From NCBI GenBank assembly GCA_031414775.1, contig JANOQI010000034.1:1-61736 (forward strand): a stretch of 61,736 bases of DNA. The letters run 5' to 3'. Made by a program: the position numbers. This document shows positions 6,001-15,000 of the stretch, piece after piece (position 1 is the first letter of the stretch; every line of letters starts with the position of its first letter). Origin of the DNA: Synechococcales cyanobacterium VAR_4_metabat_354 (GTDB lineage: Bacteria > Cyanobacteriota > Cyanobacteriia > Cyanobacteriales > Chamaesiphonaceae).

Positions 6001-9000
6001 AAAAAAACAGAACAACATATTGCCCTAAATACCGTGAGAGTTGCACTTCGCCAAATTCTTGATTAATCACCACCGCTGCTGTGAAATCTGGAGCCGGTTG
6101 ACCAACCCGCAAACAATTAGCCTGGGGATAAACAATCATCACATCGCACTTAGGAATCGGACATCTTCACGATAACGATCGGTAGAACTTCAGTCAACCA
6201 AGCAGTAGATGCGTTAATCTATAGGCGTGCATTTTCATTTACTGCCCACATGAGTGACCAGCCAATCTTTGCTATTCAGCCGTTAGCCTTATTCGTGACC
6301 GATCTTGACCACACTCTGGTTGGCGATCCAGTTGCTCTCAAAACGCTCAACACACTGCTTACCAAATTGCGCCAGGAGCAAGGACTAAAGATTGCCTATG
6401 CCACCGGTCGATCGATCACTTCCTATCAAGAATTGGCTGCTGCCGAACAATTACTGATCCCTGATGCCTTGGTCACGTCAGTAGGTACCGAAATTTATCT
6501 AGATGGTGAAAAGACTTGCACCGAATGGGATGAAAAGTTGGCAGTGGGCTGGCAAAGATCAGAGATTGTCCAAATTGCCAAACGTTTTGCGGACTTAGGT
6601 TCCCAACCCCAATCTGAGCAACGTCCCTACAAAATCAGTTACTATCTCAGCGAAGAAGCGGCGATCGAAGTCATTCCCCGCCTCCGTCAAGAACTGAAAA
6701 AGCATGGCATCATTGCTGAAATTATTTATAGTGGTCACAAAGATCTCGATATTATTCCCAAAGCAAGTAATAAAGGGGCTGCTGTTCAATTTTTGCGCCA
6801 ATTTTGGTCAATTTCGGCTCAACAAACGGTAGTCTGTGGGGACTCCGGTAACGATATTTCACTATTTAGTTACGATGCTGAATACGGAATTTTAGTGGGG
6901 AATTCCCACACCGAGCTGAAGCTTTGGTACGAAATCAATGCCACGGAGCGCCACTACCTAGCTCATGGTAACTGTTCTCAAGGTATTGCGGAGGGTCTGG
7001 GTTATTTCGGTTTTATTTAAATTGGTTTTAACTAAGTTGACTTGGCTTTCGCCCTCTAAATAGGCTGCTCATCGTCATGCCAGTCACCAATAATCCAACA
7101 AACCCCAATCCATTCAAGACAGGATAGATCGCTTTAAGATGAAATATCTCACCAGTATGCAAGTGCAGTAAGAGACCTTGGGATAAGCCCAAGTTCCAGT
7201 GCCAATCTTCGGTGATGGTAATAGCCATGCCGGTCAGGGCAGTCAATGCCATCGGTAGACACAAGATGGGGGCTAGAAATCGGTGATATCTACGGAATAA
7301 ATGTTTTATGGAATGTTTCATGGCGGCGGATAATCTTCAAGTAGGATAATGCCAACAACCTCACTATCATAGATTATGACCGACAATTCTATCAGCTCCG
7401 GCAAATCGGCACGGTCTTATGCTGTGCTATCGATCGGAGCAGCGGTAGCGACGATTGCGCTGAAGTTTACGGCCTATCATCTCACTGGCTCTGTTGGCTT
7501 GCTCTCCGATGCTTTAGAGTCGATCGTCAATTTGGTAGCGGCGGTGGCGGCGCTGGCGGCGCTCACGTTGGCAGCAAAACCACCAGATCCGGGTCATTCG
7601 TTTGGTTACTCTAAGGCGGAATATTTTTCCAGCGCTCTAGAAGGGCTACTGATTTTGCTAGCAGCTGTCAGCATCATCATCGCCGCTATTCCCCGGTTAC
7701 TGCATCCCCAAGCAATCGAACAAGTCGGCTGGGGGCTATTGATATCTTTGGTTGCTGCTGCGATTAATGGCGGCACTGCTTGGCTCCTGTTGCGTGCCGG
7801 ACGCAGACTCCGATCGATTACGCTCAAAGCCGATGCACACCATCTGCTGACGGATGTCTGGACTTCAGCTGGTGTGCTGGTTGGTTTAGTAGCAGTCCAG
7901 CTGACTGGTTGGTTGATTTTAGATCCGCTGATTGCGATCGCGGTGGCGGTTAATATTATTTGGGCAGGTTTTCGGCTGTTGCAAGAAACTGGCGCGGGTC
8001 TGTTGGACGCAGCCTTACCCACCGCTGACCTGGAGGCGATCGACCAAGTTTTGCAAAAATATCAAACTGACGGTATTCAGTTTCATGCCTTACGCACCAG
8101 GATGGCCGGGGCACGGCATTTTGTCTCTTTCCATGTTTTGGTGCCGGGGAAGTGGACCGTGCAACGGGGACATGATCTCTGTGAACAAATTGAGTTGGAG
8201 ATCGGGCAAGTGCTGCCGGGCACACATACCATCACTCATTTAGAACCAGCCGAAGATCCGACTTCCTGGGACGATCAAGGACTCGATCGATAGATTATAA
8301 AAATAGTGCGAGCAAGTCTTTAATTACGAACGTTTGATCGACGTTCTCTTGACCGAGATAAATCTGGAGCAGATTATTTAACATCCGCTGCAAAAACTGT
8401 CGCTTGGTCACCGGCTGCAATATTGATGGGGACAGATTAGGGATTTCTTGCTGATAAATCTGGACTAATTTTTGGCGACAATCTTCCGTAAATAGAATTT
8501 CTCCTTGATTAAAAGCATCGATAAAAATCTCGGAGTCTTCAAAGTCTGGACGGATGATAAAGTGACCGGGCATCCCAATCCCCACCATGGGTAGATCAAC
8601 TCGCTTGGCCATTTCTAGGTATACCAAAGCTAAAGTTAAAGGAATACCTGTCCGCCGGGCTAAGACATCATTCAAAAAACTATTGCGAGGATCATAATAG
8701 TTAGAAGTATTGCCACTAAAGCCTAACTCAGCATACAAATAATCATTGATAGTCTGGATGACCCGCAGAGGATAGCGAGATTGGGGCAACCGGGTGGCAA
8801 TTTCTGTAGCCATTTCATCTAAAATCTGAAGCTGTGCATCAATATCCAAATCCGGGTACTCGGTTTGGGCAATGTATAAAGCGGCTCGCGCTAAATTCAA
8901 CTCCTGCTCGGGCTTATTTATTTCGGCTAACAAACAACTACAGACAGACATGGTGATTTTAAGTCAGGAGGAAATCAGGCAGGGCAAGCATACTAGACAA

Positions 9001-12000: not shown

Positions 12001-15000
12001 CCATAGCCGTGATCGCCTGAATACCACCTAGCTTATAAATATTTTTGACCCCGGCTAACTCCGCCGCCACTAGCGAAGCTGGTTCGACATTACCTTCTTT
12101 GTCCGGCGGGGTGCAGACCATAATTTCCTTCACACCGGCCACGGTGGCGGGGACAGCCAACATCAACATCACCGAAGGAAAAGCACCTTTGCCGCGCGGC
12201 ACATACAATCCAGCACTAGCGATCGGAGTTACTTTTTCACCCGCAAAGACTCCCGGCGCAATCTCCGCCAGATGAATCTGCTCAGGCATCTGCCGTTCAT
12301 GAACGGCTCTAATGTTTTGATGAGCTTGGTGAATCGCCGCCTTAATTTTGGGATCAACAGTTCGTTGTGCCGCCGCAAATTCTGCATCGGTAACCTTAAG
12401 CTGCTCTAGAGTTGCGGTGGGATAGTCAAACTTCCGCACATACTCAATCAACGCTTCATCACCACGCTCTTGGATCTGGTCAATCACCTCCCGAGCCACC
12501 GCTGAAGCACCGGCAATATCCGTCTCCGATCGACGCTTGAGTTTATTTAGTTCGTTAGCAGTTAACGCCGACAGCCGAAGAATTCTAACCACCAATGATT
12601 CTCCCCGATAAGATCTCTTGAACACTAGAAACAGTATTGCTTTTCGCCATTTTCCAGACCGACTATCATAGCACAGTCCTTGCTTATTTGTCGGAAACAC
12701 CCAAAGTCAAGGCTGCTCGAATCTGGGGTGTTTGCAAAAACTTTTTGGTATCAGCCAATAATTTATCTCCCCAAAGATTTTCTTTAAGGTAATCAACACT
12801 GGCGTAACGGCTATCATTCCGGAGAGCGGTTTCCCCCAACCGAAAAGCTTCGGCTTGTTTACCTTGTCGATAAAGAGCTACGGCTAAAGCCAATTGAGGC
12901 TCAGCCGCTTTTTTGTCGATATTGATCGATCTTTGCCAAGCACGAGTGGCTTCTGGTAATTTGCCTAATTCATAATTAATTAAACCAATATTATTCAAAG
13001 CTGGCCAAAAATCTTTTTTCTTGATCACAGCTTTTTCATAAGAACGTACAGCCTCTGGATAACGTTTACTGCGGTAATAAGCATTGCCTAAATCGAATAG
13101 CCCCTGGAGGTTGTCAGAATTGATTTTCAGGCCACCCTGAAGTTTCTGAATAGCTGTATTGTAGTCGCCCTTCTGAAAAAAGGCCGAACCCATCGTAAAA
13201 AGCACATCAGCATTTTTAGGGTCTAATTTTTGAGCTTGATCAAGGCTCACAATTCCTTGATCAATCTTTTTATTTTGAACATACAAAGTTCCTAGCAATA
13301 GCCAAACATCCGCCCGTTCCGGCGCTAATTGAGCCGCCAGAATCGCCCGGGCTAAAGCTTGGTCATACTGTTGTAGCTGTGTTAGAGCCAACGCCGTATT
13401 ATAAAGACGTTGGGCTTCGCGGGATAGATCACGCGGATCTTGCTGCAAAGTGTAAGGCAACAGGACTTGAGATTGAGCAACCGGAGCAACCGTTCCACAA
13501 CCGATCAAAGCAATCAAGAAAAGGATACGTTTAGGCACGTTATGAGTACAGGTAAAAGGAAAAGAGAAAATTCGCCAGGGCTAGACATCATCTACGATCT
13601 GCACTCTCTCAGGAGAATTCTAGCATTCTGTAATGGAACTGGATCATGATGAACACGTCTAGTATGATCAAGCTACAATGTGTTGCAAATATTCATTTTT
13701 TCACCATGAAACATCTTCTCATTCGTTTATCTGCTGGCCTATTATTGACTCTGACAGGTACGGCTAACCTCCCAGCCGTCAGTCAACCAGCAACTAGCCC
13801 ATCAGCTCCAGCGAGCAAAGGTGGTGACCAATTTTCTAACAGCCCTCTGTTTCGCGGTGTTACACTTACTCAGCAACAAAAAACCCAATTGTTAAGTATT
13901 AGAAAAGACGCTGATACTCAAATTGTTAAAATGCTGACCCCAGCTCAAAAGAAAACTGCTTCTACTCAAGGACCAAGATACGTTAAGTTTACGAAGCCTC
14001 AACAGGAAAAGTTAATGGTCATTGCTAAGACCAGCAGTGCCAAGACTGAAGCGGTTTTTACTCCTGAGCAAATTAAGCAGATCAAAGAAAACATTAAGAC
14101 TCTGCAAGGTGCCAATGGTAAAACTCCGGCTCCCAACGGCCAAAAATAGTTAGTCAGAAACCCTACCTTGCTCAATTTTGTTGGTGTGCTTGGCTAGGTA
14201 GGGTTTCGATTAGTGTGGTTAACCACCCTCTCCACTGATGCCCAGAAACAGGCAAAATAACAAGGATGAGAGAAAATTAAATCAACTGCTCCTAAAAGCA
14301 CTCATGTATGGAAAAGCTGCCCGCAATCATCAGATCTAAAAAACGGCTCCCAGTGGTGGCCGGTATCGCAGCCCTAACGATCGGAGTGGCTGGCATCGGA
14401 GCTTATGCCTTTAATGCTTTACGCCCTAATCAAGTAGATTTAGAAAAACTAACGGTGCTGGCCAAGCCTGAAGATATTACCCTCAAAATTACGGCTAGTG
14501 GTACGGTACTACCCGGGCAAACAGTGAATCTCAGTCCGAAAAATGCCGGTCGGGTGGCTCAGATCTTTGTAGAGCAGGGCGATGTAGTCAAGCAAGGCCA
14601 GAAAATTGCCCAAATGGAAGATGCTGAAGGGCGGGCACAATTGCTGCAAGCTCAGGCTAATTTGCGGCAGGCTCAAGCCAATCTGGCCAAGGGGCGCAAT
14701 GGCAGCCGCCCGGAAGAAATTGCTCAATATCAAGCCAAGTTGGAAGCAGCCCAAGCTGGTTTAGATCGGTCGAAGAACGGTAATCGCCCGCAGGAAATTG
14801 CCCAGGTGCAGGCTAAACTTTCCCAGGTAAAGGCCGCTTTAGCTCTAACTCGATCGATCGCCCCTCAACAGATCCAGCAAGCTGATGCCCAAGTGGCCGC
14901 AGCAGCGGCTCGGCGCAAATTGGCAACTACAAAGCTAGAACGCACCCGTAAGCTTAATCAGGAAGGGGCAATCGCCTTAGAAAAGCTGGAAGAAGCCAAC

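What a model noticed while it worked through the whole genome (the two positions that open the first line are those of the whole stretch)
8959..12592. HisB-less histidine pathway: hisD2-kinase-fold-HAD operon replaces imidazoleglycerol-phosphate dehydratase
The genome has the rest of the histidine pathway but no hisB (IGPD). It carries an operon hisD2 (g01682) - unannotated APH/kinase-fold protein (g01681) - HAD phosphatase (g01680), with a matching non-canonical hisC 7.5 kb away (g01691), while the usual cyanobacterial hisD (g01448) has lost catalytic residues. This mobile module appears to replace the lower pathway, and g01681 is the candidate non-homologous IGP dehydratase, possibly acting by phosphorylation and elimination.
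Evidence so far: IGPD (PF00475) absent from G000 and from all 11 other genus genomes. In one sample of 151 Cyanobacteriales, 136 have hisB and 15 lack it; g01681 is in 12, all among the 15, and in none of the 136. In 401 genomes 26 carry it, from 11 families, and all 26 lack hisB. hisD2 at E<1e-200 in 17 of 17 carriers and 0 of 5 non-carriers, next to the kinase in 9; the HAD in 16 of 17 versus 0 of 5. The variant hisC lies beside or in one frame with the HAD in 5 of 5 tested; HAD-aminotransferase fusions (6 proteins) and HAD-kinase fusions (6 of 17 long homologues) exist, echoing E. coli HisN-HisB. AlphaFold model pLDDT 91; Foldseek gives APH/methylthioribose-kinase folds; the beta-3 Lys, HGDAHNGN loop and [...]
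(Added by a program. Inside this text positions count along the whole contig: contig position 1 is position 1 of the stretch shown here. "Call 12" and the like, gene names such as g00115 and contig names such as C1 are that model's own, and its searches are not shown. The text may have been shortened before it was handed on; [...] marks where a part breaks off. The agent that wrote the report below was given it as the finding of a first reader that could run no searches.)

Follow-up and report, generated by a model that had tools for sequence, protein, structure and literature searches.

The report
Histidine biosynthesis without the HisB dehydratase
Some cyanobacteria and other bacteria make histidine without an enzyme thought to be universal, apparently using an unstudied kinase-like protein and partner enzymes in a re-ordered route whose chemistry is inferred, not yet assayed.

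Summary
G000 (99.96% complete) has the upper histidine pathway but no IGP dehydratase (hisB). An APH/MtnK-fold protein with intact kinase motifs (KIN, 10035-11264) tracks that gap: 48 of 50 carrier genomes lack hisB; among 61 Cyanobacteriales 23 are KIN+/hisB- and 38 KIN-/hisB+; of 31 hisB-less Anaerolineae, exactly the 4 that keep hisF carry KIN. HisD2 alone does not predict hisB loss (18 genomes have both), which points to KIN. In several lineages KIN lies inside his operons. The route is probably re-ordered: the partner HisC lacks the lid Tyr and a phosphate-binding Arg, Chloroflexota carriers have no HisC, HisD2 has changed zinc-site residues, and the old hisC/hisD are lost or decaying. 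New here: distant KIN+HisD2 pairs sit in proteobacterial catabolic clusters (transporter, SDR, Zn-dehydrogenase, hut genes, no HAD), laid out like hpsNOP, including Sinorhizobium meliloti 1021 pSymA. Best model: IGP, dephosphorylation, oxidation, ATP-driven phosphorylation-elimination, imidazolepyruvate, transamination last. Replacement of hisB about 0.9; this route about 0.5. No assay.

The parts
11279..12592 (-). HisD2: variant histidinol-dehydrogenase-family enzyme (437 aa from GTG 12592). Keeps E326, H327, H262, E414, H419; changes Q259E, E356I, D360N, H367A (E. coli numbering)
10035..11264 (-). KIN: APH/methylthioribose-kinase-fold protein, 409 aa; beta-3 Lys, alpha-C Glu, HGDxHxxN loop, DFG-position Asp intact; extra invariant R173, R178, H244, K274, H278, Y286 (numbering, add 1 for the full protein). 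Candidate functional replacement of HisB
   Evidence: distribution
8959..10035 (-). HAD phosphatase with DxD, Thr, Lys and Asp motifs intact; start overlaps the KIN stop; candidate IGP phosphatase
20043..21101 (-). HisC*: variant histidinol-phosphate-aminotransferase-family enzyme lacking the lid Tyr and one phosphate-binding Arg, with Phe at two ArAT-like positions; lies beside or fused to the HAD in other carriers
12665..12694 (-). Extended -10 promoter-like site just upstream of hisD2 (consensus match only; 5 sites found against 7.9 expected by chance)

Best explanation
The module is an alternative lower half of histidine biosynthesis. HisG/I/E/A/F/H make imidazole-glycerol phosphate (IGP) as usual (genes shown). 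Inferred steps: the HAD removes the terminal phosphate to give imidazole-glycerol; HisD2 oxidises the terminal alcohol to the acid (imidazole-glycerate), as its relative HpsN does for a diol; KIN uses ATP to phosphorylate the hydroxyl next to the imidazole and eliminates it, giving imidazolepyruvate; HisC* or a general aminotransferase adds the amino group last. KIN may act before HisD2 instead (through imidazole-acetol). Proteobacteria use the same KIN+HisD2 pair catabolically, to bring an imported non-phosphorylated imidazole polyol to histidine and the Hut pathway. That KIN replaces the HisB function: about 0.9. This particular route: about 0.5.
For: 23 KIN+/hisB- and 38 KIN-/hisB+ of 61 Cyanobacteriales. 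Anaerolineae: 70 of 101 have hisB; of the 31 without, the 4 with hisF are the 4 with KIN. In 80 genome loci a HisD lies directly upstream in 58, hisG is in 39, hisB in none; three loci are full his operons without hisB. HisC* in 22 of 23 KIN+ and 1 of 38 KIN- genomes; all 22 lack the lid Tyr and the Arg matching Mtb Arg337 (roles from PMC4703992). No HisC at E<=1e-45 in 10 of 10 KIN+ Chloroflexota against 5 of 5 hisB+ ones; two operons carry an aspartate-aminotransferase-type gene in its place. KIN-linked HisDs form one clade; the 18 hisB+ HisD2 are one nested clade, and 2 of their 4 diagnostic changes are at the E356 and D360 positions. 80 distant loci: HisD2 44, SDR 41, Zn-dehydrogenase 23, hut genes 26, no HAD or hisG/A/F/B; layout matches hpsNOP (PMC11382572).
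Against: No biochemistry. HisD2-type is the only intact HisD found in G023, which has hisB and a canonical HisC and no KIN or HAD, so this HisD type can apparently oxidise histidinol. Two actinobacterial modules keep the HisC Tyr and Arg. The catabolic clusters often add a lactate-dehydrogenase-like gene (12 of 80) and sometimes glycerol dehydrogenase (3 of 80), which may mean an imidazole-lactate branch absent from the biosynthetic module. The HAD orthologue was not found in one Anaerolineae carrier tested (G449). G417 and G446 have KIN and hisB. Displacement by a whole foreign operon could also explain loss of the old genes. Genomes are related; the nested-clade argument is one event on a quick tree.
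Confidence: 0.5

Rival explanations
1. Canonical order with a one-for-one swap: KIN converts IGP to imidazole-acetol phosphate (via a 1,3-bisphosphate), HisC* transaminates it, the HAD is HisN, HisD2 oxidises histidinol.
For: KIN alone matches hisB absence; HAD-KIN fusions resemble HisNB; HisD2-type serves hisB+ genomes; actinobacterial HisC keeps Tyr and Arg; invariant Arg/Lys in KIN could hold a substrate phosphate.
Against: HisC* lost phosphate-site residues in 22 of 22; 10 of 10 Chloroflexota carriers have no HisC; KIN occurs in uptake clusters without HAD in organisms where a second IGP dehydratase would be idle.
Confidence: 0.15
2. Phosphatase first, but through histidinol: imidazole-glycerol -KIN-> imidazole-acetol -HisC*-> histidinol -HisD2-> histidine.
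For: Explains loss of HisC phosphate binders and HisD2 working in hisB+ genomes.
Against: Does not explain why a variant HisD always travels with KIN, nor the aspartate-aminotransferase-type gene or missing HisC, which fit a 2-oxo acid substrate.
Confidence: 0.13
3. KIN is only a kinase; the phosphate is eliminated at the aldehyde stage on HisD2 (as triose phosphate gives methylglyoxal), so dehydration is a property of the pair.
For: Kinase motifs fully canonical; tight KIN-HisD2 adjacency (58 of 80 loci); HisD site less negative, with Arg at position 259 in the operon subtype.
Against: KIN has invariant Lys, His and Arg beyond the kinase set, as a lyase step would need; hisB+ HisD2 shows a similar site charge.
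Confidence: 0.12
4. KIN does not replace HisB: carriers are auxotrophs or salvagers, or a housekeeping dehydratase (such as IlvD acting on imidazole-glycerate) does the step.
For: Hormoscilla was proposed to be a histidine auxotroph (PMC6520454); two genomes hold KIN and hisB; most carriers are MAGs.
Against: Carriers keep the upper pathway, while 27 of 27 hisB-less KIN-less Anaerolineae also lack hisF; HisD2 without KIN never goes with hisB loss (0 of 18); KIN lies in his operons.
Confidence: 0.07

Closest known systems
Imidazoleglycerol-phosphate dehydratase HisB/IGPD (PF00475, EC 4.2.1.19)
   Same: Fills the same gap: net removal of the hydroxyl next to the imidazole.
   Different: No homology; IGPD is a Mn-dependent 24-mer (PMC10978614, passages); KIN is a kinase fold and probably needs ATP and another substrate.
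APH / methylthioribose kinase / choline kinase fold (2olc, 2pyw Z 17.9; 3i0o)
   Same: Fold and catalytic motifs.
   Different: 10-16% identity; profile search of solved sequences gives nothing under E 0.14; below the Pfam APH cut-off; own conserved Arg/Lys/His set.
Kinase-based dehydration: lexapeptide LxmKY (9dk1, Z 16.9), TvaE (8jsu); ATP-dependent NAD(P)HX dehydratase (recalled)
   Same: Precedent for phosphorylation followed by elimination.
   Different: LxmKY and TvaE act on peptides with a separate lyase (recalled); the structural score is no higher than for plain small-molecule kinases, so it shows no function.
HpsNOP-SuyAB dihydroxypropanesulfonate catabolism (PMC11382572)
   Same: HisD-family dehydrogenase plus SDR plus Zn-dehydrogenase plus transporter, then an elimination step to a pyruvate.
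   Different: HisD2 lacks the HpsN motif G-R-Y-A/S-H (it has G-K-G-A/S-F), keeps the imidazole-binding Glu414, and lies beside his or hut genes; KIN stands where SuyAB would.
M. tuberculosis ArAT versus HspAT (PMC4703992)
   Same: HisC* has Phe at the positions of ArAT Phe110 and Phe246 and lacks HspAT Tyr25 and Arg337.
   Different: HisC* still passes TIGR01141 (332 bits) and has its own LxKGE motif; the mapping rests on sequence alignment.

Membership tests
IGPD / HisB (PF00475) | Sequence or fold homology, HHxxE metal motifs | tested here: not met
   No PF00475 hit in G000; KIN models as a kinase fold
IGPD / HisB (PF00475) | Converts IGP to imidazole-acetol phosphate | not testable with these tools
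   Needs an assay
APH/choline-kinase-like fold (PF01636 clan) | Fold | tested here: met
   pLDDT 95.9; Z 17.9, rmsd 5.6, 322 aligned to 2olc
APH/choline-kinase-like fold (PF01636 clan) | beta-3 Lys, alpha-C Glu, HxDxxxxN, DFG-position Asp | tested here: met
   K 75, E 73, D 75, N 75, D 73 of 76 aligned sequences
Pfam APH family PF01636 | Score over the gathering cut-off | tested here: not met
   14.1 bits against 23.2
Histidinol dehydrogenase HisD | Family score; catalytic E326 and H327; E414, H262, H419 | tested here: met
Histidinol dehydrogenase HisD | Zinc-site Q259 and D360, with E356 | tested here: not met
   E259, N360, I356; roles from PMC5585171
HpsN (DHPS dehydrogenase) | G-R-Y-A/S-H motif | tested here: not met
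   G-K-G-A/S-F in HisD2
Histidinol-phosphate aminotransferase HisC | TIGR01141 over cut-off | tested here: met
   332 against 276.55 bits
Histidinol-phosphate aminotransferase HisC | Lid Tyr and both phosphate-binding Arg | tested here: not met
   Tyr and first Arg missing in G000 and 22 of 22 cyanobacterial module copies
HAD phosphatase | DxD, Thr/Ser, Lys, Asp motifs | tested here: met
HisN (histidinol-phosphate phosphatase) | Family score or activity on histidinol phosphate | tested here: inconclusive
   TIGR01656 only 14.9 bits against 84; substrate not testable

The most novel reading that the evidence does not exclude
A second route to histidine exists: phosphatase first, transamination last, through imidazole-glycerate and imidazolepyruvate, with an APH-fold ATP-dependent dehydratase at its centre. 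The same enzyme pair is the core of an undescribed catabolic pathway for imidazole polyols in rhizobia and enterobacteria, from or into which the biosynthetic route was recruited.
Probability: 0.45. Interest if true: 0.92.

Novelty: categorically new. Interest (0 to 1): 0.85.

Why it matters
Histidine biosynthesis is taught as one conserved route, and no substitute for the IGPD step turned up in the ten paper searches run. A non-homologous replacement, and probably a different order of steps, would change how genomes are scored for histidine auxotrophy (it offers an answer to the gap Schorn et al. 2019 reported in Hormoscilla), give a function to an unannotated family with hundreds of genomic copies, add a small-molecule case of kinase-fold dehydration, and offer a route insensitive to IGPD-targeting triazole herbicides (inference). 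The cluster in S. meliloti 1021 and simple E. coli complementation make it directly testable. If the order proves canonical, it is a new variant rather than a new route.

Tried and rejected
A single-protein metagenome scan with a distant homologue found nothing; an alignment did. The asd and SqdB-like epimerase genes upstream of hisD2 in Anaerolineae (37 and 34 ORF hits) were considered as hidden pathway members and rejected: they appear only in those loci and G000's match is 48% on another contig. HisD2 as the hisB substitute: rejected, 18 of 18 KIN-less HisD2 genomes keep hisB. Catabolic clusters as DHPS clusters: rejected on motif and hut context. Base composition gives no sign of recent transfer in G000 (GC 45-50% against 45.6%). 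The Atlas search returned only hypothetical or APH-labelled clusters. No RNA holder was listed for the region, which is no evidence. hisB status of the genomes holding catabolic clusters was not tested; that S. meliloti, Klebsiella and Pantoea have hisB is recalled. No complex prediction was run. The careful HisD tree did not finish; the quick tree is quoted. Paper searches; none listed a paper describing this family or a HisB substitute. Subscription papers are mostly not held and no supplements were read (the GapMind 2026 S1 Text could bear on novelty).
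Full report
Observation. The minus strand carries a HisD-family gene (12592-11279), a 409-aa gene with only a sub-threshold APH hit (KIN, 11264-10035) and a HAD gene (10035-8959) whose start overlaps the KIN stop. 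The genome's only hisC over cut-off lies at 21101-20043. G000 is 99.96% complete and has hisG, a hisZ-like gene, hisI/E, hisA, hisF and hisH but no IGPD: PF00475 finds nothing at E<=10 while ringing in 14 of 14 controls, tblastn gives nothing better than E 0.6, and 0 of 12 genus genomes have it. The second hisD, the orthologue of the usual cyanobacterial gene, has lost the catalytic and zinc residues.

What KIN is. An alignment-based model has pLDDT 95.9 and matches APH, methylthioribose and choline kinases (Z 17.9, rmsd 5.6, 322 aligned to 2olc; LxmKY 9dk1 Z 16.9). Kinase residues are kept in 73-75 of 76 aligned sequences; R173, H244, K274, H278 and Y286 are invariant and R178 nearly so. No solved sequence matches the profile below E 0.14. 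A genome scan stopped at 600 stretches, 526 of them confirmed relatives; the 80 kept are labelled Chloroflexota, Cyanobacteriota, Actinomycetota and Melainabacteria. It is rare: 2 of 401 in a phylum sample, 4 of 101 Anaerolineae.

KIN tracks the hisB gap. Of 50 carrier genomes tested (50 of the 80 loci), 48 lack hisB. The exceptions are G417 (Pseudanabaena sp. lw0831: full module plus hisB, canonical hisC and hisD) and G446 (KIN alone, with a canonical operon elsewhere). From 300 Cyanobacteriales, 41 have HisD2 at E<=1e-150; I tested those and 20 of the 259 others: 23 are KIN+/hisB-, 38 are KIN-/hisB+, with no exception (nine carriers overlap). Since 18 of the 38 have HisD2, it is KIN and not HisD2 that goes with hisB loss. 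In Anaerolineae 70 of 101 have hisB; of the 31 without, only 4 keep hisF, and they are the 4 with KIN. In the 80 loci a HisD lies directly upstream in 58, hisG is present in 39 and hisB in none. L059, L089 and L095 are operons hisG-H-F-A/IE-(aminotransferase)-hisD-KIN-HAD without hisB; they group together on the tree despite three different labels, so I count them as one lineage. Relatives are not independent, but the pattern recurs in separate phyla. Two Hormoscilla MAGs carry the module and lack hisB; Schorn et al. 2019 (PMC6520454, passages) reported that gap in other Hormoscilla genomes and allowed for an undiscovered dehydratase. I did not test their genomes.

The whole lower pathway is replaced, and the parts are altered. 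HisC* occurs in 22 of 23 KIN+ and 1 of 38 KIN- genomes; among the 22, one shows a canonical-level copy, with a stop, and one a weaker second hit. All 22, like G000, lack the lid Tyr and the Arg that align with Mtb HspAT Tyr25 and Arg337 and have Phe where ArAT has Phe246; canonical copies from hisB+ genomes keep Tyr and Arg (roles from PMC4703992, passages). No HisC is found at E<=1e-45 in 10 of 10 KIN+ Chloroflexota, against 5 of 5 hisB+ ones; L089 and L095 carry an aspartate-aminotransferase-type gene in the operon. Against this, two actinobacterial modules keep Tyr and Arg. HisD2 keeps E326, H327, E414, H262, H419 but has Q259E, E356I, D360N, H367A; the operon subtype has R259 and A/V356 (roles from PMC5585171 and PMC11382572, passages). 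The old hisD is decayed to different degrees in G000, G421, G435, G405 and G401, and intact in 4 of the 5 non-carriers examined. The fifth, G023, has hisB, a canonical HisC, no KIN or HAD, and a HisD2-type as its only intact HisD, so that type can apparently oxidise histidinol. On a quick tree of 65 rows all KIN-linked HisDs form one clade, and the 18 hisB+ HisD2 form one clade nested in it, with 4 diagnostic changes, 2 at the E356 and D360 positions. That fits a substrate change on leaving the module but is a single event.

A catabolic twin. An alignment of distant homologues (34-40% to KIN) gave 80 metagenome loci. They hold HisD2 in 44, an SDR in 41, a Zn-dehydrogenase in 23, hut genes in 26, a lactate-dehydrogenase-like gene in 12, a HisC-like gene in 7, and ABC transporters; none has the HAD or hisG/A/F/B (45 of the 80 are under 10 kb). 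107 plasmid records match, 53 Sinorhizobium, 35 Rhizobium, 9 Klebsiella. S. meliloti 1021 pSymA 209-221 kb has aminotransferase, SDR, ABC transporter, HisD2, Zn-dehydrogenase, HutC-like regulator, KIN and the lactate-dehydrogenase-like gene. PMC2912261 (passages) lists hisC3, hisD2, a transporter of unknown function and a GntR regulator as falling together with hutUGH; matching those tags to these ORFs is my inference from order and function. The layout repeats hpsNOP, where an SDR and a Zn-dehydrogenase epimerise a diol, a HisD-family enzyme oxidises it to a 2-hydroxy acid and a lyase yields pyruvate (PMC11382572). PMC8844928 and PMC3484140 (passages) give no substrate for the transporter.

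Mechanism. Shown: gene content, motifs, fold, distribution. Inferred: the HAD frees imidazole-glycerol, HisD2 oxidises it to imidazole-glycerate, KIN phosphorylates the imidazole-adjacent hydroxyl and eliminates it, and imidazolepyruvate is transaminated last (0.5; the KIN/HisD2 order is open). Catabolic users need no HAD because the substrate arrives unphosphorylated. Rivals: canonical order with KIN as a direct IGPD substitute (0.15), phosphatase first through histidinol (0.13), KIN as plain kinase with elimination on HisD2 (0.12), no replacement (0.07). A kinase that merely remakes IGP would cycle futilely with the HAD and cannot explain hisB loss.

Novelty. GapMind 2020 and 2026 (PMC7311316, PMC13759103; passages) list HisN, HisI and HisC gaps but, in the passages read, no HisB substitute; PMC10978614 (passages) calls the pathway conserved across kingdoms. 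Ten searches listed nothing on this family; the library lacks most subscription papers and no supplements were read. Verdict: a real, apparently undescribed HisB-independent histidine pathway; replacement about 0.9, route about 0.5; interest 0.85.

Noticed in passing
G000:C42:57346-61306 (L012): G000's hisG is a 345-aa form about 40% identical to Anaerolineae HisG, between two hisS/hisZ-like genes; G421 has the same long type, while G401, G417, G273 and G002 have the short type. More of the pathway may have been exchanged in this lineage.
   Followed up: partly
G023 and 17 other genomes: One hisB+ clade of Cyanobacteriales carries a module-derived HisD2 (S356, T360); in G023 the native hisD is a degenerate remnant.
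   Followed up: partly
L333 (G687:C246:798-1844): A hisB+, KIN-less genome keeps a diverged HisC* (49%) beside a canonical-level copy; possibly a relic of the module.
   Followed up: no
G773:C23:2937-3965: A carrier still holds a canonical-level hisC with an in-frame stop, and has the module on two contigs.
   Followed up: no
P0250, P0253, P0258, P0260, P0263, P0264, P0268, P0269: Distant KIN domains (28-33%) fused behind an unannotated 300-aa domain that by eye looks nucleotidyltransferase-like; context unknown.
   Followed up: no
P0229, P0230, P0237-P0239, P0242, P0261, P0262; P0148, P0153, P0159, P0168: Further deep KIN clades whose gene neighbourhoods were not sampled.
   Followed up: no
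L226-L229: A subgroup of catabolic-type loci pairs KIN with an SDR and a class III aminotransferase and shows no HisD2 in the stretch held.
   Followed up: no
L060, L089, L095: Record labels (Pleurocapsa, Actinobacteria, Oculatellaceae) disagree with gene order or tree position, suggesting mislabelled or mis-binned contigs.
   Followed up: no
window 8295-8951: A transglutaminase-like gene (PF13369) starts 7 bases after the HAD stop and may share the transcript.
   Followed up: no
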